Shown: positions 2,235-58,778 of the stretch, piece by piece
Position numbering within the stretch: the stretch's first letter is position 1
Layout of the letters: each line of letters begins with the position of its first letter
Assembly: GCA_902594395.1 (NCBI GenBank)
Contig: CACJLZ010000001.1
Span: 41,551-105,550, forward strand
Direction of reading: 5' to 3'
DNA: 64,000 nt
DNA from: an uncultured Pelagibacteraceae bacterium
Lineage (GTDB): Bacteria; Pseudomonadota; Alphaproteobacteria; Pelagibacterales; Pelagibacteraceae
Made by a program: the position numbers and the translations under genes
Notes under the pieces: generated by a model
The model's input: the letters and a program-made list of their open reading frames with translations, nothing else
Told to the model about the DNA's origin: nothing
The model's database searches: none

Positions 2235-2993
2235 ATGAATTTAGGATTTATCGGTACAGGAAACATTGTTTCAGATGTAATATTTGGAATAAGTAAATCG
2301 AAAATTAAATATAAAAAAATAATTCTTTCACCAAGAAACAAAAAAAAAGCACTTTACTTAAAAAAGTATTTTAAAAAAGTTACCGTCGCTAAGGATAATC
2401 AAGACGTTATCAATAAAGCAGATTGGGTATTTCTAGGAGTATTACCTAAAGTTGGAGATGCAATATTACCAAAACTTCAGTTTAAGAATAAACAAATCGT
2501 AGTAAGTTTTTTGTCTACAACAAATTATCAAAAATTAAAAAAATTAATTAAAACAAAATCTATTATTATACGAGCTATTCCAATGCCACCAATTAGATTA
2601 GCCAAAGGTCCAGTTGCAATATTTCCACCAAACAAAAACGTAAAAAAATTTTTTGATAAAATAGGCACAACAATAGAAATTAGAAATGAAAAATTATATA
2701 AGAATTTTTGGGCAATTTCAGGGACTATGGCATCATTTTATGAGTTATTAAATGTTTTATCGAAATGGTTGATTAGAAAAAAAACAAATGAAAAAGATGC
2801 ACAAAAATATGTAACTTTGTTATATTCAGCTTTAGCTGAGCTAGCACTTTTAAAATCATCAAAACCACTAAAAAATTTAGTTGATGAACAAACACCAGGC
2901 GGATTGAATTGGCAAGGTGTTAACGAATTAAGAAAATTAGGCTACTATAGATTACTGAAAAAATCACTTAAGAAAATTTATAAGAGACTATAA
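2235..2993 (+). CDS. proC: Pyrroline-5-carboxylate reductase family (ProC-like) NAD(P)-dependent oxidoreductase
   Basis: GFIGTGNI Rossmann motif, RAIPMP, TPGG near C-terminus; divergent family member. Confidence 0.65.
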   Translation: MNLGFIGTGNIVSDVIFGISKSKIKYKKIILSPRNKKKALYLKKYFKKVTVAKDNQDVINKADWVFLGVLPKVGDAILPKLQFKNKQIVVSFLSTTNYQKLKKLIKTKSIIIRAIPMPPIRLAKGPVAIFPPNKNVKKFFDKIGTTIEIRNEKLYKNFWAISGTMASFYELLNVLSKWLIRKKTNEKDAQKYVTLLYSALAELALLKSSKPLKNLVDEQTPGGLNWQGVNELRKLGYYRLLKKSLKKIYKRL

Positions 2994-3005: not shown

Positions 3006-3791
3006 ATGCAAGATAATATTTTAGAAATAAAAAACTTATCAAAATATTTTGGTGGATTAGCTGCTGTTTTTAATTGTTCTTTAAAAGTAAAAAAGGGGAC
3101 TATAACAGGAATAATAGGACCAAATGGTTCAGGTAAAACCACATTGTTTAATTTAATTGCTGGAAATTTGAAATCTTCAGCTGGTAACGTTTTATTTAAT
3201 AATGAAAACATCACTGATATTCCGTCTTATGAACTATTTTCAAAAGGATTGTTAAGAACTTTTCAAATAGCACATGAATTTACAAATTTATCTGTTTTAG
3301 AAAATTTGATGATGGTACCAGGCGACCAATCTGGAGAAAAGCTGATGAATGCTTTGTTGAAACCTGGATTAGTTGCAAAAGAGGAAAGCCAAATCAAAGA
3401 AAAAGCAATGGAAGTAGTTGATTTTCTTAATTTGAGTCATCTAAAAAATGAATTGGCTGGAAATTTATCTGGAGGCCAAAAAAAACTATTAGAATTAGGA
3501 CGAACTATGATGGTTGATGCAAAATTAGTATTACTAGATGAGGTTGGAGCAGGAGTTAATAGGACTTTATTGAAGGATTTAGGCACAGCTATAGAAAAAT
3601 TAAACAGAGAGAAAGGATATACTTTTTGTATGATCGAACATGATATGGATTTTATTGGACGATTATGTGATCCGGTAATTGTTATGGCAGAGGGATCTGT
3701 TTTATTTGAGGGTTCTGTGGAAGATGCAAAAAAAGATGAAAGAGTAATTGAAAGCTATTTAGGTAGAGGTTCAAAACTAAAAGATAATTAA
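3006..3791 (+). CDS. livG: HAAT/LIV ABC transporter ATP-binding protein (LivG-like)
   Basis: FGGLAAV, GPNGSGKTT, LLRTFQ, LSGGQ, LLDE, IEHDM. Confidence 0.9.
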   Translation: MQDNILEIKNLSKYFGGLAAVFNCSLKVKKGTITGIIGPNGSGKTTLFNLIAGNLKSSAGNVLFNNENITDIPSYELFSKGLLRTFQIAHEFTNLSVLENLMMVPGDQSGEKLMNALLKPGLVAKEESQIKEKAMEVVDFLNLSHLKNELAGNLSGGQKKLLELGRTMMVDAKLVLLDEVGAGVNRTLLKDLGTAIEKLNREKGYTFCMIEHDMDFIGRLCDPVIVMAEGSVLFEGSVEDAKKDERVIESYLGRGSKLKDN

Positions 3792-3793
3792 TT

Positions 3794-4501
3794 ATGGCAT
3801 TTTTTGAGGGAAACAACATGACAGGTGGATATGGCAAAGGTCCAGATATAATCAATTCATGCACTGTTAATGTTGAAAGAGGAGAAATAGTTTCCATTCT
3901 TGGACCCAATGGCGCTGGAAAATCTACAGCTATGAAAGCCATGTTAGGTTTATTAAATTTAAAATCAGGCTCTGTAATTATTGACGGTAAAGACATCTCA
4001 AAACTTTCTCCACAAAATAGAGTGAAAGAGGGAATTTCATTTGTCCCTCAAACAAAAAATGTATTTGCAGGAATGACAGTTGAGGAAAATCTAGAAATGG
4101 GAGCTTTCTTAGTTAATGAAGATTACAAAAATGTAATTGATGAAATTTATAATCTTTTTCCGATTTTAACTGAAAAAAGAAAACAATTTGTAGGAGAATT
4201 GTCAGGAGGCCAAAGACAACAAGTTGCGTTAGGAAGGGCTCTGATGATCAAACCATCTGTACTTATGTTAGATGAGCCAACTGCTGGAGTTTCTCCAATA
4301 GTGATGGATGAACTTTTTGATCATATTATTAAAGTAAAAAAAACAAATGTCGCAATCTTGATGGTTGAGCAGAATGCTAAACAAGCTCTTAATATTTCTG
4401 ATAGAGGATATGTATTAGTCACTGGTGAAAATCGATATTCTGGGACAGGTAAAGAATTATTAAACGATCCAAGAGTAAGAAGCTCTTTTTTAGGTGGTTA
4501 A
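3794..4501 (+). CDS. livF: HAAT/LIV ABC transporter ATP-binding protein (LivF-like)
   Basis: GPNGAGKST, TVEENLEMG, LSGGQRQ, LDEPT, VEQNA. Confidence 0.9.
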   Translation: MAFFEGNNMTGGYGKGPDIINSCTVNVERGEIVSILGPNGAGKSTAMKAMLGLLNLKSGSVIIDGKDISKLSPQNRVKEGISFVPQTKNVFAGMTVEENLEMGAFLVNEDYKNVIDEIYNLFPILTEKRKQFVGELSGGQRQQVALGRALMIKPSVLMLDEPTAGVSPIVMDELFDHIIKVKKTNVAILMVEQNAKQALNISDRGYVLVTGENRYSGTGKELLNDPRVRSSFLGG

Positions 4502-5512
4502 ATGGATTTTCTAAACGCGTTAATCCTTTTATTAAATTATATTTTTGTTCCTGCTCTTGCCTATGGATCTCAATTAGCGATTGGAGCCATATTTGTAACT
4601 TTGATTTATGGAATACTGCGCTTTGCAAATTTTGCAACCGGAGACATGATGTCATTTGGTACAATGGTTGCTATACTTTTTACATGGTACTTTCAGTCAA
4701 TGGGTTTTACACTTGGTTTTTTACCCACTGCACTTTTAGCAATACCTTTTGCAATTCTATTTATGGGTTTATACATGCTAATAATTGATAAGTTTGTATT
4801 TAAATATTACAGGTTAAACAAAAGTCCCCCTGTTCAATTAGCAATGGTAAGCATAGGGGTAATGTTTGTTACTCAGGCAGTAGTAAGAATTATAATTGGT
4901 CCATCGGATAGAAGATTTTTTGATGGTGAGAAATTTTTGATTAGAGCTAATGAGTTTAAGGAAATGACAGGTTTAAACGAGGGACTTGCTATAAAATCAA
5001 CTCAATTAATTACAATTGTTGTGACTTTAATTTTAGTTTCAACTTTATTTTGGTTTTTAAATAAAACTAAAACTGGAAAAAGTATGAGAGCTTACTCTGA
5101 CAATGAAGATTTAGCATTACTTTCTGGAATAGATCCAAAAAAGATTGTTATGATAACTTGGATGATTGCTGCAATTTTAGCGACAATAGGTGGGGTTTTG
5201 TATGGTTTGGATAAAAGTTTTAAACCATTTACCTATTTTAATAATATGCTCCCAATATTTGCTGCTGCTATAGTTGGAGGAATAGGTAATCCTTTTGGCG
5301 CTTTCTTAGGAGGTTACGTAATTGCCTTTTCTGAAATACTTCTGACTTACGCGTATAAGAAATTCTTTATGTATGTGTTACCAGAAAGCATGGAACCTGA
5401 TGGCTTAATTCAGTTACTTTCAACTGATTATAAATTTGCAGTATCTTTTTCAATATTGGTAATTGTATTACTTTATCGTCCATCAGGAATATTTAAAGGA
5501 AAGATATTGTGA
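4502..5512 (+). CDS. livH: HAAT/LIV ABC transporter permease (LivH-like)
   Basis: LIYGILRFANFA, TKTGKSMRA, IVGGIGN, LYRPSGIF. Confidence 0.9.
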   Translation: MDFLNALILLLNYIFVPALAYGSQLAIGAIFVTLIYGILRFANFATGDMMSFGTMVAILFTWYFQSMGFTLGFLPTALLAIPFAILFMGLYMLIIDKFVFKYYRLNKSPPVQLAMVSIGVMFVTQAVVRIIIGPSDRRFFDGEKFLIRANEFKEMTGLNEGLAIKSTQLITIVVTLILVSTLFWFLNKTKTGKSMRAYSDNEDLALLSGIDPKKIVMITWMIAAILATIGGVLYGLDKSFKPFTYFNNMLPIFAAAIVGGIGNPFGAFLGGYVIAFSEILLTYAYKKFFMYVLPESMEPDGLIQLLSTDYKFAVSFSILVIVLLYRPSGIFKGKIL

Positions 5513-6879
5513 GAAAAAATTTAAACGTAATTGCAGCTTACAGTATTATGATGGGATTAATTATCCTTGTAGGTATATTTCAATCTTGGAATATTGCTTT
5601 ATCTATCTTTAATTTATGTTTGATATCAGCTGTCATGACGATGGGTGCTAATATTCAATGGGGTTATGCTGGTTTAATTAACTTTGGAATAATGGGCTTT
5701 ACTGCATTAGGTGGTCTAGCTGCAGTTTTAATTTCTGTAAATCCAGTTCAAGAGGCTTGGAGTGCAGGGGGTATTAACATTTTATTGAGTTTATTTCTCA
5801 TTATTGGAATTGTTTTAGCTGTAAGATTTGTTCTCAAAAAATATCAGAAATCTAAAATTAGAAGTTACATTATAGCTGCAATAATTATTTTAGGAATAAT
5901 TATCATACGATTTGTATCTGAACCTGGTATTGAGGCAATTGAAGAAGTAAACCCAGCTAGAACTGGGTTTCTAGGTGGGCTAGGGCTTCCAATAATTTTT
6001 TCTTGGATAGTGGGCGCTTTTTTTGCAGGAGGATTAGCTTTTGTAATTGGAAAAGTAGCATTGGGTTTAAGAGCTGATTATTTAGCGATAGCCACATTAC
6101 TAATATCTGAAATAGTTATAGCAATTATAAAACACGAAGATTGGCTAACTAGAGGTGTTAAAAATGTAATTGGATTAAAGCGTCCTGCTCCATATGAAGT
6201 TAACTTACAAGAAACAGAATGGTTTATAAATCTAGTTGAAAAATTTAATTCAGGAAAATTAGCTTTAATTTCTGATCTGTCAGAAAGGCAATCAGCTCTA
6301 AATCAATTTGTAATAGAAGGATCATCGGTATTTGTAAAACTTTGCTATTCAGGTTTATTCTTAGTTGTTGTGATTATTCTTTTAATCTTAACTCAGAAAG
6401 CTCTTTACTCTCCTTGGGGAAGAATGATGAGAGCTATTAGAGACAATGAGGAAGCTGCCAACGCTATGGGGAAAAATGTAGTTAAACAGCATTTGTTAAT
6501 TTTTGTTTTAGGATCAGCTATTGTTGGTATTGCAGGAGCTATGCTTGTGACACAAGATGGATTATTTACACCAGGAAGTTATAGACCTTTGAGATACACT
6601 TTTTTAATTTGGGTAATGGTAATTGTTGGTGGAAGTGGAAACAATTTTGGAGCAATTCTTGGAGGTTTTGTAGTTTGGTTCTTATGGATTGAGGCAGCAC
6701 CAATCGGATTATATTTAGTTAATTTAATAACAGCAGGTTTAGAAGACACACATTTTTTAAAAGTTCATTTAATTGAAAGTGTCCCTTATTTTAGATTTTT
6801 AATGATGGGAATAGGTTTATTATTAATTATGAGGTATAGACCAAAGGGTATACTTCCTGAAAAAATAGAAATAAAATAA
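5509..6879 (+). CDS. livM: HAAT/LIV ABC transporter permease (LivM-like)
   Basis: WGYAGLINFG, LRADYLAIATL, SPWGRMMRAIRDNE, IVGGSGN; GTG start overlaps the livH stop. Confidence 0.9.
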   Translation: MRKNLNVIAAYSIMMGLIILVGIFQSWNIALSIFNLCLISAVMTMGANIQWGYAGLINFGIMGFTALGGLAAVLISVNPVQEAWSAGGINILLSLFLIIGIVLAVRFVLKKYQKSKIRSYIIAAIIILGIIIIRFVSEPGIEAIEEVNPARTGFLGGLGLPIIFSWIVGAFFAGGLAFVIGKVALGLRADYLAIATLLISEIVIAIIKHEDWLTRGVKNVIGLKRPAPYEVNLQETEWFINLVEKFNSGKLALISDLSERQSALNQFVIEGSSVFVKLCYSGLFLVVVIILLILTQKALYSPWGRMMRAIRDNEEAANAMGKNVVKQHLLIFVLGSAIVGIAGAMLVTQDGLFTPGSYRPLRYTFLIWVMVIVGGSGNNFGAILGGFVVWFLWIEAAPIGLYLVNLITAGLEDTHFLKVHLIESVPYFRFLMMGIGLLLIMRYRPKGILPEKIEIK

Positions 6880-6883
6880 GAAT

Positions 6884-6955
6884 ATGAAATATATAATTAC
6901 AGGTGCTGCTATTGCTTGGGCTTTATATATGGCAGATAAATATTTATTTTTTTAA
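6884..6955 (+). CDS. Putative 23-aa single-TM microprotein MKYIITGAAIAWALYMADKYLFF (not in ORF track)
   Basis: ATG 4 nt after the livM stop; hydrophobic core; ends just before the operon terminator. Confidence 0.5.
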   Translation: MKYIITGAAIAWALYMADKYLFF

Positions 6956-7010: not shown

Positions 7011-8192
7011 TTATCTTTGTTTTTTAGTTTTGAATTTTCCGCCTTTAACTTCTTGTTCTAAGAAAGAACCTTCAGCTTCACCGACGCTAGTAAAAGTAAC
7101 TCCAGTTGCACCTTCGTAGTCAACTTTTTTACCTTTAGCTAATAAATCTAAACCTTTTTTAAGTTGACCTGGATAGATCTTTGTTCCAGGACCATTAGCA
7201 ACATCCATTACATTTTTTGCAATTGATGCTCTATCAGCTGAGTTACCTGCTTGCATAGCTAAAACTATTAAAGCGGCAGCATCATATGATTCTCCTGTGT
7301 ATGGACCAGAACTGTCTATACCAGCAGCACTTGCTACTTTAGCAAACACTCCAGCTCCTTTTCCAGTTGAGCCAGGTAATGAACCAAAAGATTTATTTAA
7401 ATCTTTTCCAAATTCATCAACTAAAGATTGACCGATCATACCATCTGATAAAATAAATCTATCAAATGCACCTGAGTCTAAAGATGCTTGAATAATACCT
7501 TTACCACCTTGATCTAAGTAACCTATTACTGCTACCGCATCTCCACCTGCTGAAGCAAGTGTTGCTACTTCAGATGAATAGTCCGCTTTACCATCCTCGT
7601 GCGCTGTTACAGTAGTAACTTTAATACCATGAGCTTCAACAGCTGCTTTATAAACATCTGCTAAACCTTTTCCATAGTCGTTATTAGTGTATGTAATTGC
7701 TACACTTTTAATTTTTCTGTCTTTAGTAACATCAGCTAAGATTTGACCACCTCTTGCATCTGAAGGAGCTGTTCTAAAAAAGTATCCTTTATCGTCAAGA
7801 GTTGTTAAACCTGGAGATGTTGCAGAAGGTGAAATCATTACAACACCATTTGGTACTGCAACATTAGATGCAATCGCACCTGTTACACCTGAACAGTCAG
7901 CTCCCATAATTGCTGCAACACCTTGTGCAATAACACCTTCGGCTGCCGCAGTGGCTGCCGCTGAGTCAACACAAGTTGAGTCTGCTCTTACAACTGAAAT
8001 TTTCTCACCACCAAGTAATGACCCAGAATCTGAGGCTTCGTTAAAAGCAAGCTCAGCAGATGCTGCCATTGCTGGCGTAAGGGATTCAATTGGACCAGTA
8101 AATCCTAATATAATTCCCATTTTTACTTCTGCAAAAACATTTGTTGTAAAAGTAGAAACAAATATAAATGCTGCCACAAATAGTTTTTTCAT
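7011..8192 (-). CDS. HAAT/LIV-family ABC substrate-binding protein, probably for L-pyroglutamate or a related amino acid
   Basis: Signal peptide, GADCSG, ISPSATSP, FFRTAPSD, NNDYGKG, YDAA; lies between livGFHM and pxpABC. Confidence 0.88.
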   Translation of the reverse strand: MKKLFVAAFIFVSTFTTNVFAEVKMGIILGFTGPIESLTPAMAASAELAFNEASDSGSLLGGEKISVVRADSTCVDSAAATAAAEGVIAQGVAAIMGADCSGVTGAIASNVAVPNGVVMISPSATSPGLTTLDDKGYFFRTAPSDARGGQILADVTKDRKIKSVAITYTNNDYGKGLADVYKAAVEAHGIKVTTVTAHEDGKADYSSEVATLASAGGDAVAVIGYLDQGGKGIIQASLDSGAFDRFILSDGMIGQSLVDEFGKDLNKSFGSLPGSTGKGAGVFAKVASAAGIDSSGPYTGESYDAAALIVLAMQAGNSADRASIAKNVMDVANGPGTKIYPGQLKKGLDLLAKGKKVDYEGATGVTFTSVGEAEGSFLEQEVKGGKFKTKKQR

Positions 8193-9806: not shown

Positions 9807-10295
9807 TTAATATTTCGATTTTTCACCAGCTATAACTGCTTTTAACTGGTCATATTCTTTACAATTACAATCTTTTAAAACTTCAAGTCTTTCAACTGCA
9901 AGATTATGTCTATTTGTGGCTACGTATAGTTCACCAAGATATTCATTTATACCAGTATGCTTTGGATCAATTTTTAATCCTTGTAGATAAAATTTTTCCC
10001 CATTCTCAAAATCACCAAGCTTTCGAGTTGTAAAACCAAGATAATTTAATGTATCAGCTTTATTTGGAAAATTTTTGTTAGATTGAACCAATAATTTTTG
10101 CGCTTTTAAATAACTTTTTTTTGCTTTATCTGGCTTATCTTTTTTTTCAAAGTTTTTTGCTGCTTTAATATGTGTAACAGCCATATCATATTTTGTTTTA
10201 GTTTTAGAGGAACCGCTATCGCTCGATCCTGCAGCATATGAGCTTGAGATAACTAAAGTAGATATAATAAGAGAAATAAGTAAATTTTTAATCAT
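9807..10295 (-). CDS. Secreted TPR-repeat protein
   Basis: Signal peptide; TPR-like ADTLNYLGFTTRKLG...GLKIDPKH...EYLGELY. Confidence 0.8.
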   Translation of the reverse strand: MIKNLLISLIISTLVISSSYAAGSSDSGSSKTKTKYDMAVTHIKAAKNFEKKDKPDKAKKSYLKAQKLLVQSNKNFPNKADTLNYLGFTTRKLGDFENGEKFYLQGLKIDPKHTGINEYLGELYVATNRHNLAVERLEVLKDCNCKEYDQLKAVIAGEKSKY

Positions 10296-11071
10296 ATAAA
10301 TTTTTTCATTTTATTTAATGTTTTTAAATTAAGTCCGTTATCCAGTAAATTTTTTCTTATAGATTTAGCTGTTTCCAAAGAACTAATATTATCGCCATGT
10401 ATACATACAGAATCGATTTCACAAGGTATTTGTTTCCCACTGTGACAATTAAGTGACTGAGTTTGCACCATTTTTAACACATGTTTTTTTGCTTGTTCTG
10501 GGTCAGTGATTAAAGCATGAGGTTTTTTTCTTGATACAAGATTTCCATCATCCTCATAATTTCTGTCAGCAAATATTTCACAGGCAATATTCATATCAAG
10601 CTTTTTAGCGGCTTGTTCCATTTTAGAACCGGTTGGCACTAAATAAATTAAGTCTGGATTTATTCTTTTAATTACTTTTGCTAAAGTCGTTGCTAAATCA
10701 ATATCCTCACATGCCATATTATTTAAAGCTCCGTGTGGTTTTATATGAGTTACATTTTCACCATGGTTAGACGAAATTGTTTGAAGAATTTCATATTGAT
10801 CAGTTATTAATTTTTCTAATTCAGAAGAGGATAAATTCATTCGTTCTCTCCCAAAATTTTCAGGATCATTAAAAGATGGATGTGCTCCTATACTGACACC
10901 ATTTTTTTTTGATATTTCTACAACTTGATTCATAGTTTCCTCATCACCTGCATGATAACCACATGCTATATTTGCTGAATTAACTATTTCAAGTAAGTCA
11001 GGATCATGCTTGTTAGAATGATGTTTAGATTTCTCACCTAAATCGCAATTTATATTAATTTCAATACTCAT
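10292..11071 (-). CDS. pxpA: 5-oxoprolinase subunit A (LamB/YcsF)
   Basis: NCDLGE, SANIACGYHAGD, GAHPS, HIKPHGAL, EIFADRNY, CIHGD. Confidence 0.93.
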   Translation of the reverse strand: MSIEININCDLGEKSKHHSNKHDPDLLEIVNSANIACGYHAGDEETMNQVVEISKKNGVSIGAHPSFNDPENFGRERMNLSSSELEKLITDQYEILQTISSNHGENVTHIKPHGALNNMACEDIDLATTLAKVIKRINPDLIYLVPTGSKMEQAAKKLDMNIACEIFADRNYEDDGNLVSRKKPHALITDPEQAKKHVLKMVQTQSLNCHSGKQIPCEIDSVCIHGDNISSLETAKSIRKNLLDNGLNLKTLNKMKKFI

Positions 11072-11092
11072 TATTCTTCAGTATAACATGGC
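11072..11092. promoter_or_regulatory. Putative bidirectional promoter producing near-leaderless pxpA and pxpB mRNAs
   Basis: 21-bp gap between divergent ATGs; TATAAC (+, 11082-11087) and TATACT (-, 11080-11085) overlap; no SD on either side. Confidence 0.5.
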
Positions 11093-11767
11093 ATGATAAA
11101 AAATATATCAAATCTTGGTGACGCAGCTTTATATTGTGATTTTGGTAAAGAGGTAAATAAAGAAATTAACACACAAGTAATAAAATATTTTAAAACTATT
11201 CAAAAAAAAAATATTGCAGGGGTGAATAATATTACCCCATCTTACAATAAATTAATTATTTCTTTTGATCTTAAAAAAATTAATTTTAATAAACTTAAAA
11301 AAGTAATTGATAATATAGAAATTATTAAAGGCGATAGCATACAAAACAAAAAATTTGAAATTCCTGTCTGTTGTGAAAAAGAATTTTCTTTAGACATAAA
11401 AAGATTAGAAGAAAAACTTAAGATGAAAGAGGAAAAAATATACGAGAGTTTTTTTGAAAAAGAATTTTTTTGCTATATGACAGGTTTTATCGCAGGAATG
11501 CCTTTTCTTGGAGATTTAGATGAAAATCTTAGAGCAAAACGTCTTGATACCCCGAGGGTTAAAGTGCCAAAGGGTTCAATTGGTTTGACTGAGCAATTTG
11601 CCAATATCTACACTTTTGAAAGCCCTGGGGGATGGAATATCATTGGAAATACTCCATTGAATATTTTTGATAGCACTAAAGAAAAAGAGCCCAATTTAAT
11701 CAATCCAGGTGATTTAGTTACATTTAAGAGGATTACTAAAGAGAATTACCAAAATTATCATGAATAA
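11093..11767 (+). CDS. pxpB: 5-oxoprolinase subunit B (KipI/AHS1)
   Basis: LGDAAL, PSYN, GFIAGMPFLG, PRVKVPKGS, SPGGWNIIG. Confidence 0.93.
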   Translation: MIKNISNLGDAALYCDFGKEVNKEINTQVIKYFKTIQKKNIAGVNNITPSYNKLIISFDLKKINFNKLKKVIDNIEIIKGDSIQNKKFEIPVCCEKEFSLDIKRLEEKLKMKEEKIYESFFEKEFFCYMTGFIAGMPFLGDLDENLRAKRLDTPRVKVPKGSIGLTEQFANIYTFESPGGWNIIGNTPLNIFDSTKEKEPNLINPGDLVTFKRITKENYQNYHE

Positions 11768-12704
11768 AAATTATTTTGAAATTATAAGGGCTGGTATTAA
11801 TTCAACTTTCCAAGATCTTGGAAGAAATAATCTTTATCATATAGGTATCCCATTCAGTGGAGCTATGGATAATAGAAATTATTTATTGGCTAATAAACTT
11901 ACTGGTAACAATCATAATGATCCAGTGATAGAATTTGCTTATCAAGGCCCTCATTTGAAATATCATGGAGATAAGATTAATATTGCTATCACTGGCGATG
12001 TCAGTTTCAAAATTAAAAAAGGTGATAATCTAATTAACGGAGAATGTTATCAATCATTTATTTTAGAAAATGATGACGAGTTGGATATTATATCAACTAA
12101 TAAATCTGTGTATGGATATCTAGCAATCAGTGGTATATTTGATTTAAAATTTCAATGGTCTAGTTGTTCAACTAATACTAAAGCAAAGATAGGATCCAAT
12201 AATGGAGAAAAGTTATCTGTTAACCAAAAAATTAATATTAAAGAAATTAATAATAACTTTGTGCATAGAAAACTAAATTATGTTAATACAAAGATAGAAA
12301 ATATTAGAGTAATTAAAGGCACAAATTTTAATTATTTTTCTGAAGAGAGTAAGAAAATTTTTTTTAAAAATGAATTTAAAGTTTCTAAATTATCTGATCG
12401 TATGGGAATGAGATTAGAGGGAAAAAAAATAGAAAATATAATTGATACTAATATTAGATCTGAGGGCTTAATTAAGGGGGTGATACAAGTGCCAGCTGAT
12501 GGTAATCCAATAATCATGCTTTCAGATCACGGAACTATAGGGGGATATCCTAAAATCGGCGTCGTTGTAAGTGCTGATTATGATAAATTAGTTCAATTAA
12601 CTCCTGGCTCCAGAGTCAAATTTCAGGAGGTCGATTTAAGTAGTGCAGAAACTCTTTTTAAATTGTATGACTTAGAGACTCAAAATTTAATTTCACAAAT
12701 TTAA
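11760..12704 (+). CDS. pxpC: 5-oxoprolinase subunit C (KipA/AHS2)
   Basis: QDLGR, SGAMD, SDRMGMRL, IQVPADGNPII, TIGGYPKI. Confidence 0.93.
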   Translation: MNKNYFEIIRAGINSTFQDLGRNNLYHIGIPFSGAMDNRNYLLANKLTGNNHNDPVIEFAYQGPHLKYHGDKINIAITGDVSFKIKKGDNLINGECYQSFILENDDELDIISTNKSVYGYLAISGIFDLKFQWSSCSTNTKAKIGSNNGEKLSVNQKINIKEINNNFVHRKLNYVNTKIENIRVIKGTNFNYFSEESKKIFFKNEFKVSKLSDRMGMRLEGKKIENIIDTNIRSEGLIKGVIQVPADGNPIIMLSDHGTIGGYPKIGVVVSADYDKLVQLTPGSRVKFQEVDLSSAETLFKLYDLETQNLISQI

Positions 12705-29412: not shown

Positions 29413-30753
29413 ATGTTAACAAGAATGTTAAAAAGGCTTGCATCTACTTTCACAGTAGTTGTAGCTTTATTTTCTTCACTCGCTTTACCTCAAAAAGTAT
29501 TTGGAGCAGAAACTCAATACTTTCCTGTAGCTAGTAGCCGTGTTGGACCTTATTCAGCAATGGGGACTGGTTACTATGGGGCTCAGATTGACTATATGAA
29601 TTATGTCAATATGACAGGCGGAGTGAATGGAGTCATGCTTACATGGCAAGAATGTGAAACTGAGTACAACGCTGTGAAAACAGTTGAGTGTTACCAAAGA
29701 CTACTTGAAAAAGATGGTCAAAGAATAGTTGTGTTTGATACTTTAGGAACACCAGGAGCATATGCAGTTATTAACCGTATGGCAAAAGACAATGTTGTTT
29801 TAGCTCAATATGGTTATGGAAGAACTGACGGTGCTGATGGAAGAGTATGGCCTTGGGTATTTAATGCTGCAAGTCACTACTGGTCACAAATAGCCGTTAA
29901 ATTAAAATTTATGGCAGAAATCGAAGGCGGAATTGATAAGATGAAAGGTAAAAAAATCGTTCACTTACACATTGACTCTGCTTACGGTAGAGAGCCATTA
30001 CCAGCAATGAGAAAAATAACTTCTGACTGGGGAATGAAATTAGTTGAAATTTCAATTCCGCCTCCAGGTCTAGAACAACAATCTCAGTGGCTGCAAATCA
30101 GAAGAGAAAATCCTGATTGGGTTACTTTCTGGGGAGCAGGTTCTGGAATGAATTCAACAGCAATGACCAATGCTGCTAGAATTAATTTTCCAAGAGATAG
30201 AATGATGTATGTAACATTCGGCGCTGCCGAGGAGGATATGTATCCAGCGGGTGATGCAGCTAAGGGAACTTATGCTGTTGCAAATGCTTTACCTGGAGAA
30301 TATCCATTAGTTAAAGACATCAAAGACAAAGTATATGGTGCCGGAAAAGGTAACTTAGCTGATCCTAATAGGATTGGTTCAGTTTATTGGAATAGGGGAC
30401 TAGGTGCTGCAGTTATGTGGATTGAGGCGTTAAGAAATGCTCAAAAGATGCATAATAAAGTTGGTAAAGCAGTAACTGGTGCTGAGTTTAGAGATGGTTA
30501 TGAGGCTTTGAACATGACTGAAGCTAGACTTACTGAACTTGGAGTTGGAGGAATGTTAGCTCCGTTCGCTATTTCATGTGCAAATCATGAAGGTGCTGGT
30601 AAATTTGCTGTAATGCAGTGGGATGGAACAAAATTCAATCAGGTAACTGGTTGGGAAGCTCCAGGTGATCCTGCATTTATTAGAGGTCTAGTAGAGGCAT
30701 CTGCAGCTAAGTTTGCTAAAGAGAACAACATTACACCGAAAAAATGCGGATAA
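29413..30753 (+). CDS. HAAT-family ABC substrate-binding protein (organic acid/ligand-binding subfamily)
   Basis: Signal peptide, GPY, GGVNG, ECETEYN..VECY, AYGREP, SCANHEG, QWDG. Confidence 0.88.
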   Translation: MLTRMLKRLASTFTVVVALFSSLALPQKVFGAETQYFPVASSRVGPYSAMGTGYYGAQIDYMNYVNMTGGVNGVMLTWQECETEYNAVKTVECYQRLLEKDGQRIVVFDTLGTPGAYAVINRMAKDNVVLAQYGYGRTDGADGRVWPWVFNAASHYWSQIAVKLKFMAEIEGGIDKMKGKKIVHLHIDSAYGREPLPAMRKITSDWGMKLVEISIPPPGLEQQSQWLQIRRENPDWVTFWGAGSGMNSTAMTNAARINFPRDRMMYVTFGAAEEDMYPAGDAAKGTYAVANALPGEYPLVKDIKDKVYGAGKGNLADPNRIGSVYWNRGLGAAVMWIEALRNAQKMHNKVGKAVTGAEFRDGYEALNMTEARLTELGVGGMLAPFAISCANHEGAGKFAVMQWDGTKFNQVTGWEAPGDPAFIRGLVEASAAKFAKENNITPKKCG

Positions 30754-30782
30754 TTAATTTAGAGATAAATTAATATCTTTTG

Positions 30783-30822
30783 AAGGGGGAGTTTAGATAA
30801 TCAATTTAAACTCCCCCTTTAA
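30783..30822 (+). terminator. Intra-operon stem-loop after SBP gene
   Basis: 13-bp stem AAGGGGGAGTTTA/TAAACTCCCCCTT with weak T tail. Confidence 0.75.
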
Positions 30823-30845
30823 ATAAAATTTAAAGTAAAAAATTA

Positions 30846-31661
30846 ATGAGTGATAATTCAGTAGATATTCTTGATATAAAAAATATTGAGGTAATGTATG
30901 ATAACGTTATTCTAGCTTTACATGATGTTTCTTTAAAAGTTCCCAAAGGAAAAGTAGTTGCGTTATTAGGAGCAAATGGAGCGGGTAAAAGCACAACATT
31001 AAAAGCTGTCTCAACTATGTTAGCTTCCGAAAGAGGTAAAGTTACCAAAGGCTCAATAGATTATGATGGAAATTTAATAGAAAAACAAAACCCATCTCAA
31101 ATGGTTGGACTTGGAATGGTTCAAGTATTAGAGGGCAGAAGATGTTTTGGTCATTTAACTGTTGAGGAAAATATTATCTCTGGAGCTTATTCAAGAAAAT
31201 TATCTAAAGGTGATATTGATCAAGAATTAGAGAAAATTTATGGTTATTTTTTAAGATTAAAAGAAAGAAGAAAAAGTCAAGCAGCATTTACATCAGGCGG
31301 AGAACAACAAATGATTGCAGTTGCAAGAGCAATGATGGCAAAACCTAAAATGTTGTTACTAGACGAGCCAACAATGGGTCTAGCGCCTCAATTAGTTGCT
31401 GAGATTTTTAATATTGTAAAAGAGTTAAATCAAAAAGAAGGAGTTAGTATTTTGCTTGCTGAACAGAATACTAATATTGCATTAAAAAACTCTGATTATG
31501 GTTACATCATTGAAACTGGAAAAGTGATGCTCGAGGGGACTGCGGAAAGTTTATTAAACAATGATAAAGTAAAAGAATTATACTTAGGCATATCAAAAAA
31601 AGGTAGAAAAAACTTTAGAGATGTTCTTAAAGAGGAAAGTTTAAACAAAAAAATTAATTAA
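30846..31661 (+). CDS. ABC transporter ATP-binding protein (LivF-like)
   Basis: GANGAGKST, EGRRCF..LTVEEN, SGGEQQM, LDEPT, AEQN. Confidence 0.9.
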   Translation: MSDNSVDILDIKNIEVMYDNVILALHDVSLKVPKGKVVALLGANGAGKSTTLKAVSTMLASERGKVTKGSIDYDGNLIEKQNPSQMVGLGMVQVLEGRRCFGHLTVEENIISGAYSRKLSKGDIDQELEKIYGYFLRLKERRKSQAAFTSGGEQQMIAVARAMMAKPKMLLLDEPTMGLAPQLVAEIFNIVKELNQKEGVSILLAEQNTNIALKNSDYGYIIETGKVMLEGTAESLLNNDKVKELYLGISKKGRKNFRDVLKEESLNKKIN

Positions 31662-31664
31662 AAG

Positions 31665-32459
31665 ATGGCATACGAAAGAAAGTTTAAAATAGGAAAACCA
31701 ATTTTAGAGGTGAATAATATTTCACTCGCTTTTGGAGGTGTTAAGGCTATTACCGATACTTCATTTAACGTACTTGAGCACGAAGTTAGAGCAATTATTG
31801 GACCTAATGGAGCCGGGAAAAGCTCAATGTTAAATTGCATTAATGGAATTTATAAACCTCAACAAGGAACTGTATCTTTTAGAGGACAAGTAGTGCCTAA
31901 TATAACCCCGAATATTATGGCTCAAATGGGTCTATCTAGAACGTTTCAAAACTTAGCTCTTTTTAAAAGAATGTCAGTACTGGATAATATTCTAGTAGGT
32001 AGAAAACTTCACACAAAAACAAATTTCCTTGAGGTAGCTTTACAACTTCCTAAAGTTAAAAAAGAGGAAGAATTAAATAGAGAGAGGTCAGAAGAAATAA
32101 TAAGTTTTTTAGAGATAGAAGACATTAAAAATACTCCAGTTGGAAAACTTCCTTATGGATTACAAAAAAAAGTTGAATTAGGTAGAGCCCTTGCAACAGA
32201 CTCCTCAATAATTCTATTGGATGAGCCAATGGCTGGAATGAATGTTGAGGAAAAAAGAGATATGTGTAGATTTATTTTAAAGGTAAATGATGAACTTGGT
32301 ACAACAATGGTTTTAATTGAGCATGATATGGGAGTGGTAATGGATATATCTGATAGAGTTGTTGTGCTTGATTACGGCAAGGTTATTGGTGATGGAACAC
32401 CAGATGAAATAATGGCAAACCAAAAAGTAATAGATGCTTACTTAGGAGTGGAACACTAG
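31665..32459 (+). CDS. ABC transporter ATP-binding protein (LivG-like)
   Basis: FGGVKA, GPNGAGKS, RTFQN, LPYG, LDEP, IEHDM, AYLG. Confidence 0.9.
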   Translation: MAYERKFKIGKPILEVNNISLAFGGVKAITDTSFNVLEHEVRAIIGPNGAGKSSMLNCINGIYKPQQGTVSFRGQVVPNITPNIMAQMGLSRTFQNLALFKRMSVLDNILVGRKLHTKTNFLEVALQLPKVKKEEELNRERSEEIISFLEIEDIKNTPVGKLPYGLQKKVELGRALATDSSIILLDEPMAGMNVEEKRDMCRFILKVNDELGTTMVLIEHDMGVVMDISDRVVVLDYGKVIGDGTPDEIMANQKVIDAYLGVEH

Positions 32460-32468
32460 GATTATAAT

Positions 32469-33377
32469 ATGGCAAATGAATTACTATTTTTTATGGAAGT
32501 TCTGGTTGGCGGTTTACTTGCTGGTACAATGTATTCTTTAGTTGCTCTAGGCTTTGTTCTTATTTTTAAAGCGTCAGCAACATTTAACTTTTCACAAGGA
32601 GCCATGGTTTTTTTCTCAGTTCTTGCTTTCTGTGGTTTCATGCAAGATTTCAATATACCTTTTGTATTCGCTTTTATTTTAGCAGCCCTTTTGATGGTAG
32701 TGGTTGGTTTATGTACTGAGAGATTGGTTTTAAGACCTTTAATGAATGCCAGCGAAGATACAGTATTAATGGCCACAATTGGCTTAGGATATGTTTTAGA
32801 AGGACTTGCTCAAGCAGCATGGGGAGTGGAAGTAAGAAGATTAGATTTAGGCATAGGAGATTTTCCAGTGCCATGGATTGCAGATAATTTAAAATTATTT
32901 ATTAGTGCACTTGATATTACTGCTGGGTTAGTTGCAGCAATAATGATTATTGGTCTATTTTTATTGTTTAAATATACAAAAATTGGATTAGGTTTAAGAG
33001 CTGTTGCAGATGATGCAGGTGCAGCAAGTTCTATAGGAATTCCTTTAAAACATATAATGTTATTAGTATGGTCTGCTGCAGGGGTTGTAGCTTTAGTAGC
33101 AGGAATGATGTGGGGAGCAAGAGCTGGTGTTCAATTTGCTCTTGTTGATCTTGCATTAAAAGCTTTGCCGGTTTTAATTATAGGTGGATTCTCGTCTATT
33201 CCAGGAGCAATTATTGGAGGTTTAATTATTGGTGCAGTAGAAAAAATATTAGAGGTTTATATCGGACCGTTTTTTGGAGGAGCTATTGAAGGATGGGCTC
33301 CATATGTATTAGCGATATTCTTTTTATTATACAGACCGGAAGGTTTATTTGGAGAAAAAATTATCAGGAGAGTTTAA
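32469..33377 (+). CDS. ABC transporter permease (LivH-like)
   Basis: YSLVALGFVLIFKAS, NFSQG, TKIGLGLRA, IGGFSSI, RPEGLFG. Confidence 0.9.
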   Translation: MANELLFFMEVLVGGLLAGTMYSLVALGFVLIFKASATFNFSQGAMVFFSVLAFCGFMQDFNIPFVFAFILAALLMVVVGLCTERLVLRPLMNASEDTVLMATIGLGYVLEGLAQAAWGVEVRRLDLGIGDFPVPWIADNLKLFISALDITAGLVAAIMIIGLFLLFKYTKIGLGLRAVADDAGAASSIGIPLKHIMLLVWSAAGVVALVAGMMWGARAGVQFALVDLALKALPVLIIGGFSSIPGAIIGGLIIGAVEKILEVYIGPFFGGAIEGWAPYVLAIFFLLYRPEGLFGEKIIRRV

Positions 33378-33380
33378 TTT

Positions 33381-34448
33381 ATGAAACCAATTTTTATGAC
33401 TTACACAAAAAAAGACCTGATCAACTTAGCTGTTTGTATGGTTTTAAGTGTATTAATAATACCTACATTTATTAAAACAGAATATTGGTACACCTCTATA
33501 TTAATTCCTTGGCTTTGCTTGGCTTTAGCTACTATAGGACAACAAATTGTAATGGGTTATACGGGTCAATTAGCTTTGGGTGCCGCTGGATTTATGGCCG
33601 CAGGTGCTTTTGCTATGTTTAACCTTATTTTACGAGTGCCTGATCTTGGTTTTGTAGGCTCACTAATAGTGTCAGGTTTGATTGCTGCGGCTTTTGGAAT
33701 TTTGTTTGGTCTACCAAGTTTAAAGGTAAGAGGAATTTATCTGATGGTAGCAACATTAGCCTCGCAGTTTTTTATTATATGGATGATAGATAAATTTGGT
33801 TGGTTTAAAAACTACGACTCATCAGGAATTATAACTGCCCAAGATATAGTTATTTTAGGAAAACCACTTACAACTCCATTAGCTATGTATTTTGTATGTT
33901 TGGCTGTTACCACAATTTTAACTTTGTTAGCTATGAATATGGCAAGAGGAAGTACAGGCAGAAATTGGATGGCAGTTAGAGATATGGATATTGCCGCTGA
34001 GTCCATGGGGGTTTCATTATTAAGAACCAAAGTTCAAGCATTTGCTATTAGTGCATTTTATTGTGGTGTAGCTGGTGCTCTTTTTGCATTTTGTTATCTA
34101 AAATCTTTAGAGCCAGTTGCTTTTGATATTAAGTTATCTTTTAAAATCTTATTTATGTGCATCCTTGGGGGACTTGGAACTATTAATGGTGCTTTTATAG
34201 GCGCTGCATTTATTTTGCTTTTCCCGGTGCTTTTGAATGCTTTAGGAAACAATGTATTTCATGGAGCTATTGATGCTACAATTATTTCATCAATCGAACA
34301 GGTAATTTTTGGTCTATTGATGATAATATTTATGATTTATGAACCTTTAGGAATGGCTAAGCTTTGGGAAAATCTTAAGCAAAGTATGAGATCAAAATTA
34401 TCTTCATCAGATACCAAAAGTTTAAAATCTCCAGTACTAAAAAAGTGA
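33381..34448 (+). CDS. ABC transporter permease (LivM-like)
   Basis: GYTGQLALG, VRGIYLMVATLA, GRNWMAVRD, ILGGLG, EPLG. Confidence 0.9.
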   Translation: MKPIFMTYTKKDLINLAVCMVLSVLIIPTFIKTEYWYTSILIPWLCLALATIGQQIVMGYTGQLALGAAGFMAAGAFAMFNLILRVPDLGFVGSLIVSGLIAAAFGILFGLPSLKVRGIYLMVATLASQFFIIWMIDKFGWFKNYDSSGIITAQDIVILGKPLTTPLAMYFVCLAVTTILTLLAMNMARGSTGRNWMAVRDMDIAAESMGVSLLRTKVQAFAISAFYCGVAGALFAFCYLKSLEPVAFDIKLSFKILFMCILGGLGTINGAFIGAAFILLFPVLLNALGNNVFHGAIDATIISSIEQVIFGLLMIIFMIYEPLGMAKLWENLKQSMRSKLSSSDTKSLKSPVLKK

Positions 34449-34528
34449 ATAAGAAGAAATTAATTATAGCATTAGCAATAGGAGTATTAATAGGTCTACT
34501 TATTGAAAATAATTTTATAATTTCATAA
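34445..34528 (+). CDS. Putative 27-aa single-TM microprotein MNKKKLIIALAIGVLIGLLIENNFIIS (not in ORF track)
   Basis: GTG start overlaps the livM-like stop (GTGA); KKK followed by 15 apolar residues; fills the gap to the convergent HPP gene. Confidence 0.55.
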   Translation: MNKKKLIIALAIGVLIGLLIENNFIIS

Positions 34529-34532
34529 AAAA

Positions 34533-34997
34533 TTATTTTTGGCTTGGATAAGACTTTTTCAAAATAAATTTGTTAACTATTATTGCAAAAATAATAATTA
34601 TAACTGATCCTGATATTACAGGACTTAGCAAGTAATCAAAAGAAACACTTCCAATTATTACTATTATGGGATTACCGCCTGCTGGTGGATGAGTGACATT
34701 TAATAAGATCATTAATCCAACTCCAAATCCTACAGCTAAAGGGATAGTTAGAAAGATTGGTAATGGAACAAAATGTAAAAAAAGTAAACCTACTATTGCA
34801 GTAACTAAATGACCAAAAAAAACATTTTTTGGTTGGGCAAAAGGACTTTCAGGATATCCATATAGCAAAACCATAGATGATCCAAATGAAGCTAACAAGA
34901 AAACTCCAAACTCAGTTCTGTAAGTTAAAAAAGTTAAAATCCCAATAGTAATTATTGAAAATAGGCCAGCTAAAATAGATTGTTTTGTACTACCCAT
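34533..34997 (-). CDS. HPP family membrane protein
   Basis: ASFGSS, SPFAQPKN..GH, THPPAG motif. Confidence 0.92.
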   Translation of the reverse strand: MGSTKQSILAGLFSIITIGILTFLTYRTEFGVFLLASFGSSMVLLYGYPESPFAQPKNVFFGHLVTAIVGLLFLHFVPLPIFLTIPLAVGFGVGLMILLNVTHPPAGGNPIIVIIGSVSFDYLLSPVISGSVIIIIFAIIVNKFILKKSYPSQK

Positions 34998-56421: not shown

Positions 56422-58778
56422 TTTAAATTAGGGGTATTAAAACCACCAAAAGGTAAAATTGTAATTTTAAATAACAAATTTTCTGAAGGTTTTAGTTCTT
56501 TGTCACTATAATATTCTTTATTGTATTCAATTCCAGCTCTCAAGCAATCGTTTTCATATTGGTAAATAAGATTATAGTATTCCGTAAAACTTTTTTCTTT
56601 ATTTTCAATTGTCTCAAAAATTAAACTATTTTTATCGTTAAATTTATACTTAGTTTCATTTTTCAAATATGAAGATTTCAGATTAGTATTATTCTCATTT
56701 AAATACTCAAATCTTGTAGTAAGATTTTTCAAGTAATATTCAAATCCAAATAGTTCATAGTTTTTATCATCTAAATTATTCTTAATTGAAAAATCATAAT
56801 TAAATTTAAAGTTATCATTATGCTTGTATTCAAATAACCCAACAAAATCTGACATTTTATCACCTAAATTACTATTTGATGGTAAATCTTTATTTTCTTC
56901 AATTCTTAGATTATTTGCAAAACCAAATTTCATTATTTCATCAAAACTTGTTTTATTAATTTTTGTATATTCATATCCATAGGTTGCTGAAATTCCTCCT
57001 TCAGTTGACTCGTCTATCCCTAATCTGTTGAAATCGTAAATATTTTTATAGTTTATTGTTCTATCAGTTGAACTAATATCTTTGGTGAATGGTATACTTA
57101 ATCTTAAAGAAAGTTTAGGTGTTAAAATATTATTGAATTCTCCTATTTCTTTACGTAATGGCAATGTATAGTCAGACTGAAAACTTGGAATTAACAAATT
57201 TGTATTTTTATTTTGAAAATTATTTGAGTTTGTTGCGTCAGAATTTATATTTTTAAGAATTAATTTTTTATCATTTAAAAGTCCGTTATCAAAATATTTT
57301 AGATCTGATTGATATTCTAAATTGTTTATTAAAACTTTTTCTGTGATATTGGTATTATAATTTTTATAATATCCCTGTGATCTAAAAGTGTAATTATTAT
57401 TCATAATCTTTGAAAAATTAAAATTGGGGATATATTCAAATTTATCACTATCATTTTTGGTTAAATCTTCATAGACCTCAAGGCTTGTATCAAATGTCAA
57501 ATTTTCATTGTACATCTTTAGACTTAATGAATTTGTTAAATTAGATAAGTTATTGATTATTGGACTTTCTATTTTATTTGATTTTAGATAGGTTTCATCT
57601 GTGACTTGCTCTAACTTTATATTCAATTCTACATTATCAAAATTGTTGGTTTTATAATTTTTGTCATAATTATAAAACAAGTGACTATTCGAATTCTTTT
57701 CGCTTGAGAAAAACTGACTAAAATCTGCTATATGATTAGAGTATTTATTTTTTTTTCTAAATTCTGATTGTATTAAAAATTTATCATCATTAAAAAATCT
57801 TGGTGTTAGTGTTAAATCTCTATTATCAGCTATTACTAAAAAATAGGGTAAATTAAATGATAAACCCGTTGAACTATTGTCTTGAAATCTAGGTATTAAA
57901 AACCCACTTTGTCTTTTTACAGTTGGATCAGGATGAAAAAATTTTGGAAAATAAAAAACTTTTTTGTCATAAATTTTTAAACTTGCATTTTTATAATTAA
58001 TAGTTTTTTTTTGTTTATCATGTCGAATTTCCTCCGCGCTCATTTCCCACGGAGGACATTTATCTCTTCTTTTACAAAAGGTAAAAGTTCCCTTTTCTAC
58101 AATAGTGTTTCTTTTATTACTTACTAAGCTCCTACCTTTTAATCTAGGTTCATTTTCCGAATTTTCATCGAGTTTAAAATTCATACTAATATCTTTTGCG
58201 ATTAATTCTTTTTTGTTTAAATCAAGATAAGATAAATCTACTAAAAAAGAATTTTTGTCTTTATCTTGCGCAACTAAATTATTTAATTTAATTATTTTGT
58301 CTTTAAAAGAATACTCAAATCCATCAACTTTGTAAGTATTGTTAAGGTCATCAAAAATTTCTGAATATTCCTGGCTTAGAATTTTTTGCTTATCTAAATT
58401 ATAATTAATTTTATTAGATTTAATAACCAAATTATTGATACCATCGTTTATCACAATATTATTTTCAAAATTCAGATTAGACTCATTAATTTTATACTCA
58501 ATTATCTCTGATTTAATTTCAAAATTTCTATCAATTGATGAAATTTTTCCGTTATTAATTATTAATAATGATTTATCTTTGAAATATTTTATTTTTTTAC
58601 CTTTTATTTCTAAGCCTTCATCTTTGATAATTGCTGTTCCATTATTAGCAATTGTCAAGTTTTGATCATTTGAAATTTCTATGTCTGAAGCTTGAAAATC
58701 TATTTCGCTAGAGAGAGATTTATTAATCAAAACGAGTTGAAATAGAATTGTGATAATTATAAAGATTTTATTTTTCAT
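56418..58778 (-). CDS. lptD: LPS-assembly protein LptD
   Basis: FTFC...CPPW, HPDPTVKRQSGFL, Y.NDC; conserved lptFG-lptD-surA-pdxA-ksgA order. Confidence 0.92.
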   Translation of the reverse strand: MKNKIFIIITILFQLVLINKSLSSEIDFQASDIEISNDQNLTIANNGTAIIKDEGLEIKGKKIKYFKDKSLLIINNGKISSIDRNFEIKSEIIEYKINESNLNFENNIVINDGINNLVIKSNKINYNLDKQKILSQEYSEIFDDLNNTYKVDGFEYSFKDKIIKLNNLVAQDKDKNSFLVDLSYLDLNKKELIAKDISMNFKLDENSENEPRLKGRSLVSNKRNTIVEKGTFTFCKRRDKCPPWEMSAEEIRHDKQKKTINYKNASLKIYDKKVFYFPKFFHPDPTVKRQSGFLIPRFQDNSSTGLSFNLPYFLVIADNRDLTLTPRFFNDDKFLIQSEFRKKNKYSNHIADFSQFFSSEKNSNSHLFYNYDKNYKTNNFDNVELNIKLEQVTDETYLKSNKIESPIINNLSNLTNSLSLKMYNENLTFDTSLEVYEDLTKNDSDKFEYIPNFNFSKIMNNNYTFRSQGYYKNYNTNITEKVLINNLEYQSDLKYFDNGLLNDKKLILKNINSDATNSNNFQNKNTNLLIPSFQSDYTLPLRKEIGEFNNILTPKLSLRLSIPFTKDISSTDRTINYKNIYDFNRLGIDESTEGGISATYGYEYTKINKTSFDEIMKFGFANNLRIEENKDLPSNSNLGDKMSDFVGLFEYKHNDNFKFNYDFSIKNNLDDKNYELFGFEYYLKNLTTRFEYLNENNTNLKSSYLKNETKYKFNDKNSLIFETIENKEKSFTEYYNLIYQYENDCLRAGIEYNKEYYSDKELKPSENLLFKITILPFGGFNTPNLK

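What the first reader, a model, noticed from the sequence alone, without database searches (positions are those of the whole stretch)
6884..6955. Unannotated single-TM microprotein closing the first LIV-type ABC operon
Seen: an ATG 4 nt after the livM stop opens MKYIITGAAIAWALYMADKYLFF*, which ends right before the operon terminator. In a genome with gaps of 0-15 bp, about 75 bp between the last gene and its terminator asks for an explanation. A second, sequence-unrelated HAAT operon in this window ends the same way (34445-34528). Both peptides have an N-terminal Lys, 13-15 apolar residues with small-residue spacing, an acidic/polar turn (DKY / ENN) and a short hydrophobic tail. Established: small TM partners of transporters exist (KdpF, AcrZ, MgtS). 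Inference: these may be accessory or regulatory micro-subunits of HAAT ABC importers; I know of none described.
Basis: partly seen in the sequence, partly recalled or inferred. Interest (0 to 1): 0.78.

Follow-up and report, generated by a model that had tools for sequence, protein, structure and literature searches.

The report
Conserved SAR11 membrane microprotein, LivM-independent
The 23-codon frame behind this amino-acid importer is a real, previously unnamed gene kept under purifying selection across most SAR11 ocean bacteria examined; it is predicted to be one membrane helix that likely tunes a membrane protein encoded elsewhere rather than this importer, because it persists in genomes that lack the importer, whereas the window's second tiny gene does travel with its own importer.

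Summary
Observation confirmed; interpretation mostly not. ORF 6884-6955 is a real gene: start, stop and frame are conserved, G, Y and DKY are invariant in 105 distinct DNA versions, and dN/dS is 0.05-0.22. It matches 152 of 173 Pelagibacteraceae genomes (one copy decaying) and none of 27 of the sister family. It is not a dedicated LivM subunit. Twenty genomes of five other genera carry it without this LivM; two single-contig genomes carry it with no LivH/LivM-family gene at all; one genome lost the transporter and kept the peptide; others lost the peptide and kept LivM. Best reading: a non-essential single-helix partner of a membrane protein encoded elsewhere; target unknown. The second ORF (34445-34528) shows no detectable homology, is also real (dN/dS 0.075) and followed its livM wherever flanking DNA allowed a check (80 of 80, 14 of 14, 28 of 28), across three families. 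It is the better accessory-subunit candidate, though three 70-79% LivM orthologues lack it. Other SAR11 HAAT operons have no such tail. No description found; no earlier scan finding matched.

The parts
6884..6955 (+). Peptide 1 ('DKY' microprotein) gene, 23 aa; family 22-32 aa; predicted single helix
6961..6991 (.). Intrinsic-terminator-like hairpin, A-tract before and T-tract after (likely bidirectional)
5509..6879 (+). livM-type permease (456 aa), upstream neighbour of peptide 1
   Evidence: best NCBIfam hit LivM, below cut-off
4502..5512 (+). livH-type permease (336 aa)
   Evidence: named from position and weak similarity to livM
3006..4501 (+). livG- and livF-type ATPases (3006-3791, 3794-4501)
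   Evidence: Walker motifs read in the translation
2235..2993 (+). proC, first gene of the same-strand run
7011..8192 (-). Convergent binding protein, likely SAR11_1346 orthologue (branched-chain/hydrophobic amino acids)
   Evidence: last 23 residues match the paper's SAR11_1346 gene at 20 and SAR11_1346* at 22, read by eye; ligands from PMC11485210 passages
34445..34528 (+). Peptide 2 gene, 27 aa, GTG start overlapping the livM2 stop; A-x3-G-x3-G helix then [ED]NNF
29413..34448 (+). Second HAAT operon: binding protein, two ATPases, livH2, livM2 (33381-34448); substrate unknown
34533..34997 (-). HPP-family membrane protein gene, convergent with peptide 2

Best explanation
ORF 6884-6955 is a conserved, mostly single-copy gene of SAR11 bacteria whose product is predicted to be one short membrane helix that likely docks on, and would stabilise or tune, an inner-membrane protein encoded elsewhere in the genome, while its place behind livM is likely only a ride on that operon's transcript. 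Shown: coding selection, family range, independence from LivM, varied neighbours, dispensability in some lineages. Inferred: translation by coupling to the upstream stop (start within -11 to +20 nt of a preceding gene in most loci, SD-like words in only 11 of 123), membrane insertion with the Tyr/Trp near the N-terminus and Y-x-x-D-K-Y at the two interfaces, binding through the Gly/Ala-rich helix, and an AcrZ/MgtS-like mode of action. The target is not identified. Peptide 2 is a separate family that likely serves its own importer.
For: Coding: 105 distinct 21-codon cores, G, Y, D, K, Y invariant with synonymous codons; dN/dS 0.052 (802 close pairs), 0.22 (all 5460); shifted frames hold stops in 92 and 94 of 105; livM-anchored loci alone 0.19 and 0.10. 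Range: 100 of 141 genus genomes, one match each; 152 of 173 family genomes after removing 5 weak genus-g5 hits. Independence: 0 of 20 peptide-bearing genomes of genera g6-g10 have this LivM; G217 and G218 (one contig, 98-99%) have no PF02653 gene; G084 (one contig, 99%) lacks LivM and the binding protein yet keeps an intact peptide behind a decayed livM 3' remnant; neighbours include ProW-type permease, NlpC/P60, PRA-PH, SDR, DUF3047, DUF6279, thioredoxin-like, PhyH, or none. Helix: one helix, residues 2-27, pLDDT 88.5. A helix this weakly hydrophobic (best 15-residue mean 1.45-2.51) with invariant residues suggests packing on a protein (inference).
Against: No partner identified and no binding tested. 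Conservation does not fall significantly on one helix face (2491 of 20000 shuffles as high). No direct evidence of translation; RNA contigs cover the ORF in 4 runs but without a silent-stretch control. Within the main genus the peptide stays directly behind livM in 83 of 100 genomes (counted by hand), which is long-lived linkage. It is missing from several near-complete genomes, so any partner works without it. dN/dS pairs are not independent and most loci were found by the protein profile.
Confidence: 0.6

Rival explanations
1. Peptide 1 is an accessory or regulatory micro-subunit of the HAAT importer it follows, at least in the main genus.
For: Directly behind livM in 18 of 24 genus loci (2 more cut by contig ends) and 83 of 100 peptide-bearing genus genomes; 97 of 100 have this LivM somewhere; stays in the operon when a thioredoxin-like gene is inserted (7 genomes).
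Against: Present without this LivM in 20 of 20 genomes of five other genera and without any family member in 2; kept after transporter loss in G084; cleanly deleted in G220 and decaying in G285 beside full-length livM; absent behind livM in 6 of 6 sister-family loci and from 27 of 27 such genomes.
Confidence: 0.08
2. Peptide 1 is a promiscuous modulator or assembly aid of several nutrient transporters, which would explain why it lands beside different transporter genes.
For: Neighbours include livM, a ProW-type permease, MFS (directly downstream in 26 of 117 distinct loci), Mem_trans, TauE and sulfate permease.
Against: Many neighbours are enzymes; SAR11 is rich in transporter genes, and I ran no enrichment test; the MFS gene does not co-occur with the peptide (absent from 10 or more near-complete peptide-bearing genomes, present in 8 without it).
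Confidence: 0.12
3. Peptide 1 derives from, or mimics, the membrane helix of UppP/BacA that ends in F-G-x-x-L-Y-x-A-D-K, and modulates carrier-lipid recycling.
For: The best hit outside SAR11 lies in that helix with the same G, G, Y, A, DKY spacing; profile comparison probability 54%, 17 columns; UppP is in 10 of 10 genomes tested.
Against: E 0.004 per genome over 347 genomes is expected by chance; the comparison was chosen after the fact and includes that hit; SAR11 UppP is intact, also where the peptide is missing; SAR11 UppP helices score only 0.2-8.5 bits; Pfam BacA does not hit any member.
Confidence: 0.07
4. The peptide is a precursor whose C-terminal DKY-hydrophobic tail is cut off and released as a signal, like streptococcal short hydrophobic peptides (resemblance recalled, not tested).
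For: The most conserved part is the tail, preceded by a small residue (A/G/S in 103 of 105).
Against: Invariant Tyr at -3 is disfavoured for signal peptidase I (established knowledge); no receptor or exporter is linked; helix residues are conserved too; C-terminal extensions vary by up to 5 residues.
Confidence: 0.04
5. The peptide acts on the bilayer or on itself (homo-oligomer, membrane stress factor) with no larger partner.
For: G-x3-[GA] motif; nearest named clusters by language-model features are YncL and YoaK, scores 0.76 and 0.75, lead only.
Against: Invariant Y and DKY are more than lipid anchoring needs (inference); scores are under the tool's 0.9 level.
Confidence: 0.08
6. Not a protein gene: conserved spacer or RNA element in front of the terminator.
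For: None beyond the short length.
Against: Variation falls on third codon positions (0.33 against 0.20 and 0.11); it moves without the hairpin; no Rfam match reaches a gathering score (13 weak matches).
Confidence: 0.01

Closest known systems
AcrZ (E. coli; PMC7267776, search listing and start of abstract seen) and MgtS (recalled)
   Same: Single membrane helix under 50 aa; encoded apart from the target (recalled); non-essential modulator.
   Different: No sequence similarity found; target unknown here; shorter (22-32 aa); restricted to Pelagibacteraceae in the genomes searched.
KdpF (recalled)
   Same: Tiny hydrophobic gene inside a transporter operon; the closer analogy for peptide 2.
   Different: KdpF leads its operon and serves a P-type ATPase complex; peptide 1 does not track its transporter; no homology found.
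aa3 oxidase subunit IV (PF07835) and PetM/PetG
   Same: Short single-helix subunits of bioenergetic complexes; PetM/PetG give weak hits (E 0.018-0.022 in 3 of 36 members).
   Different: Subunit IV is a separate gene in this genome (C3:2884-2994, E 2.5e-12); the Pet hits are marginal and SAR11 has no b6f complex (recalled).
SAR11_1346 branched-chain amino-acid ABC system (Clifton et al. 2024, PMC11485210; passages and supplement rows seen)
   Same: The binding protein beside peptide 1 is likely this orthologue.
   Different: The passages I saw treat binding proteins only and mention no small ORF; supplement MOESM1 was too large to read and one file was a scan.
UppP/BacA transmembrane helix (PMC5861054, passages seen)
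   Same: Local motif ending in L-Y-x-A-D-K.
   Different: Not significant; UppP is complete in SAR11.

Membership tests
Small membrane accessory/regulator of a transporter (AcrZ, KdpF, MgtS kind) | Gene of 50 codons or fewer under coding selection | tested here: met
   (both peptides)
Small membrane accessory/regulator of a transporter (AcrZ, KdpF, MgtS kind) | Single transmembrane helix | tested here: inconclusive
   One helix predicted; hydrophobic stretch only about 15 residues, 1.57 in the window copy; insertion not shown
Small membrane accessory/regulator of a transporter (AcrZ, KdpF, MgtS kind) | Physical binding to and effect on a transporter | not testable with these tools
   needs experiment; no complex prediction was obtained
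Dedicated subunit of the first HAAT importer (peptide 1) | Occurs only where the permease occurs | tested here: not met
Dedicated subunit of the first HAAT importer (peptide 1) | Kept where the permease is kept | tested here: not met
Dedicated subunit of the second HAAT importer (peptide 2) | Occurs only with the permease | tested here: met
   14 of 14 genome hits; 28 of 28 metagenome loci with upstream DNA, 6 of 34 too short
Dedicated subunit of the second HAAT importer (peptide 2) | Kept wherever the permease is kept | tested here: inconclusive
   80 of 80 close loci but not in G435, G539, G182, which fall outside the peptide-bearing branch (support 84/79)
One family holding both peptides | Detectable homology | tested here: not met
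   hhalign probability 25%, 13 columns
PetM/PetG, PF07835, YncL/YoaK or any Pfam, NCBIfam, PHROG or PDB family | Significant profile match | tested here: not met
Split-off helix of UppP/BacA | Host UppP lacks the helix | tested here: not met
Attenuator leader peptide | Fixed place upstream of one regulated gene, with a leader RNA | tested here: not met
   varied downstream genes or none; no Rfam gathering match

The most novel reading that the evidence does not exclude
Streamlined ocean bacteria carry an unannotated layer of membrane microproteins: peptide 2 is the first dedicated micro-subunit of a HAAT-type ABC importer, gained once by one subclade of the operon and carried with it across three families, while peptide 1 is a family-wide regulator of a core SAR11 membrane protein (possibly UppP).
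Probability: 0.3. Interest if true: 0.75.

Novelty: new member of a known kind. Interest (0 to 1): 0.52.

Why it matters
SAR11 genomes are pared to a minimum, so a 22-32 aa gene held under purifying selection in 152 of 173 family genomes, through repeated moves and through loss of its neighbours, must do something the cell pays for. Gene callers mostly miss it (named only 'hypothetical protein' where called). It gives a concrete pull-down target in a very abundant marine group. Peptide 2 makes the question 'do ABC importers have micro-subunits' testable with a natural pair: 79-82% identical permeases with and without it.

Tried and rejected
Complex prediction (peptide 1 homologue with UppP of the same genome): the queue was full, so no job ran and there is no verdict; peptide 2 (27-28 aa) is under that tool's 30-residue minimum and was not sent. 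Longer homologues: 55 hits among 1.84 billion representatives are all this family, with unrelated extensions that look like read-through or miscalled starts. Other Alphaproteobacteria: 350 genomes, only one SAR11 genome and one partial UppP match. Viruses: 1 IMG/VR locus, at the edge of an apparently chimeric contig; no match in 50,697 phage records. Genus g5 weak hits: in G172 a ProRS-like motif (name recalled; the other 4 not inspected). MFS as partner: rejected. UppP split helix: rejected. Binding protein as SAR11_0655 or SAR11_1361: rejected. One-face conservation: not significant for either peptide (2491 and 1062 of 20000). Expression: contigs of 4 RNA runs from 4 studies cover the ORF, but contigs show no strand or level and I laid no silent control: inconclusive. 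ESM Atlas: best 0.75-0.76. No fold search was run, since a single helix gives meaningless matches. Literature: searches listed nothing on these peptides (listings only); six short motifs were absent from 9 supplements of PMC12856327, which may not list all sequences. Earlier scan findings concerned other features.

Full report
1. Observation. The window is from a SAR11 (Pelagibacteraceae) genome: close relatives of its genes carry that name. The second ORF is at 34445-34528 with a GTG overlapping the livM2 stop. Anatomy alone proves little: 18 of 87 gaps of 45 nt or more hold a tail ORF, 3 pass a hydrophobicity cut against 1.4 +/- 1.2 in shuffles, and peptide 1 is under that cut (Kyte-Doolittle values recalled).

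2. Peptide 1 is a gene. Loci found by LivM alone (best 30 kept) show the ORF directly behind livM in 18 of 24 genus loci; 2 are cut by contig ends, 4 lack it there; 0 of 6 sister-family loci have it. Over 123 peptide-bearing loci (some genomes fetched twice; 105 distinct 21-codon cores) G, Y, D, K, Y are invariant with synonymous codons, starts are ATG in 119 and TTG in 4, lengths 22-32 aa, dN/dS is 0.052 for close pairs and 0.22 for all, and the two shifted frames hold stops in 92 and 94 of 105; the mirrored antisense frame also scores low (0.14) but is broken in 32. The 18 livM-anchored cores alone give 0.19 and 0.10. Pairs are not independent. AlphaFold2 gives one helix (2-27, pLDDT 88.5) for a 30-aa member.

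3. Range. One match in each of 100 of 141 genus genomes. In an order-wide draw: 157 of 173 family genomes at E 0.05, of which 5 (genus g5) are weak hits that I dropped after seeing one inside a long ORF, leaving 152, one of them a decaying copy (G285); 20 of 22 in genera g6-g10; 0 of 27 in the sister family. Five genomes had a second weak match that I did not inspect. One unpublished genome (G223) is among the non-matches of that draw; no claim depends on it. Not found in other alphaproteobacterial families among 350 genomes, and the 55 hits in 1.84 billion proteins are the same family. No Pfam, NCBIfam, PHROG or PDB family matches.

4. It does not belong to LivM. In the same 141 genomes: both 97, peptide only 3, LivM only 14 (4 look cut at contig ends; 2 checked), neither 27. 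Of the 100, 83 are adjacent, 7 have a thioredoxin-like gene inserted, 7 lie far away, 3 have no LivM (counted by hand). None of 20 peptide-bearing genomes of g6-g10 has this LivM. Of 5 of them searched for PF02653, 3 have other members and 2 (G217, G218; one contig, 98-99%) have none. G084 (one contig, 99%) lacks LivM and the binding protein; an intact peptide follows about 120 nt of decayed livM 3' end. Conversely G220 lost the peptide cleanly and G285 has charged residues in the helix, both beside full-length livM. In the 14 of 20 other-genus loci inspected, and in 20 selected genus loci, the upstream neighbour is NlpC/P60, PRA-PH, DUF3047, SDR, DUF6279, a ProW-type permease, ProC, thioredoxin-like, livM, or a gap of several hundred bases. 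The commonest downstream neighbour, an MFS gene (26 of 117 distinct loci), does not co-occur with it (26 of 74 genomes). Against this reading stands the long-lived linkage in the main genus; synteny explains it, but co-option is not excluded.

5. The host operon. The convergent binding protein is distant from the solved SAR11_0655 candidate 8WCH (identity of that entry recalled) and differs at its C-terminus from SAR11_1361, but matches SAR11_1346 and SAR11_1346* at 20 and 22 of the last 23 residues, read by eye. PMC11485210 describes that protein as binding branched-chain and hydrophobic amino acids (passages). So the operon is likely the SAR11_1346 importer.

6. Peptide 2 behaves differently. 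It follows livM2 in 80 of 80 loci (the best 80 of 433 relatives, 93-98% identity), dN/dS 0.075 over 59 distinct cores. Its profile hits 14 of 201 genomes, all directly behind livM2. Of 34 metagenome loci found by the peptide, the 28 with upstream DNA all have livM2 there, 2 with a Fur-like gene in between; 6 are too short. It also occurs in the sister family (G038) and a third family (G608). It was not found with three orthologous operons (LivM2 79, 78 and 70%), nor seen behind 26 relatives at 46-53%. In a 24-row LivM2 tree the 15 bearers form one side of a branch (84/79, not firm): one gain, then retention. A passenger in a transferred cassette would also stay linked, so this is suggestive only. 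The two peptides show no detectable homology. Twenty loci around other SAR11 permease systems show no hydrophobic tail ORF, so the pattern is not general.

7. Mechanism. Shown: two coding genes; peptide 1 independent of its neighbours and dispensable; peptide 2 linked. Inferred: peptide 1 is translated by coupling to whichever gene precedes it, inserts as one short helix and binds a membrane protein encoded elsewhere, as AcrZ does with AcrB (PMC7267776 abstract start; separate encoding recalled). I put this at 0.6. The only sequence lead to a target is a non-significant likeness to a UppP helix. A conserved helix face was tested and not significant.

8. Novelty and verdict. No description was found in seven literature searches (listings only) or in the supplements of a marine small-protein survey; subscription papers and small-protein databases were not searchable, and gene callers have called some members as hypothetical proteins. 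Two new families of a known kind of molecule. Interest 0.52.

Noticed in passing
L070:4318-4374 and matching places in L071, L072, L074-L076, L150-L152: A third conserved micro-ORF (18 aa, hydrophobic, synonymous changes) on the strand opposite the relocated peptide 1, behind a 46-aa signal-peptide-like ORF that is 192 aa in L151; 9 of 9 such loci, not in the window's genome.
   Followed up: partly
own genome C3:2884-2994: 36-aa aa3 cytochrome c oxidase subunit IV gene (PF07835), another small tail ORF.
   Followed up: yes
own genome C3, after the gene at 56982-57506 (-): 41-aa tail ORF, basic N-terminus and hydrophobic C-terminus, overlapping the upstream stop.
   Followed up: no
L356:5507-5818 (G182): The second operon without peptide 2 is followed by a different 103-aa ORF with one hydrophobic N-terminal stretch.
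   Followed up: partly
L117 (G084) about 5870-5990: Whole first transporter deleted, leaving a decayed livM 3' remnant in front of the intact peptide.
   Followed up: yes
L077, L088 (G157, G122; 77% complete): proC-peptide-binding protein with livGFHM missing from the locus and no LivM found; orphan binding proteins also in G208 and G228.
   Followed up: partly
L312, L315: A Fur-family gene inserted between livM2 and peptide 2.
   Followed up: partly
L159: IMG/VR contig that looks chimeric: SAR11 peptide and MFS start fused in frame to a phage-like gene.
   Followed up: partly
window 10292-12704 (-): pxpABC-like genes (names recalled from the translations) lie 2 kb from the first transporter, whose binding protein is not the pyroglutamate one.
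   Followed up: no
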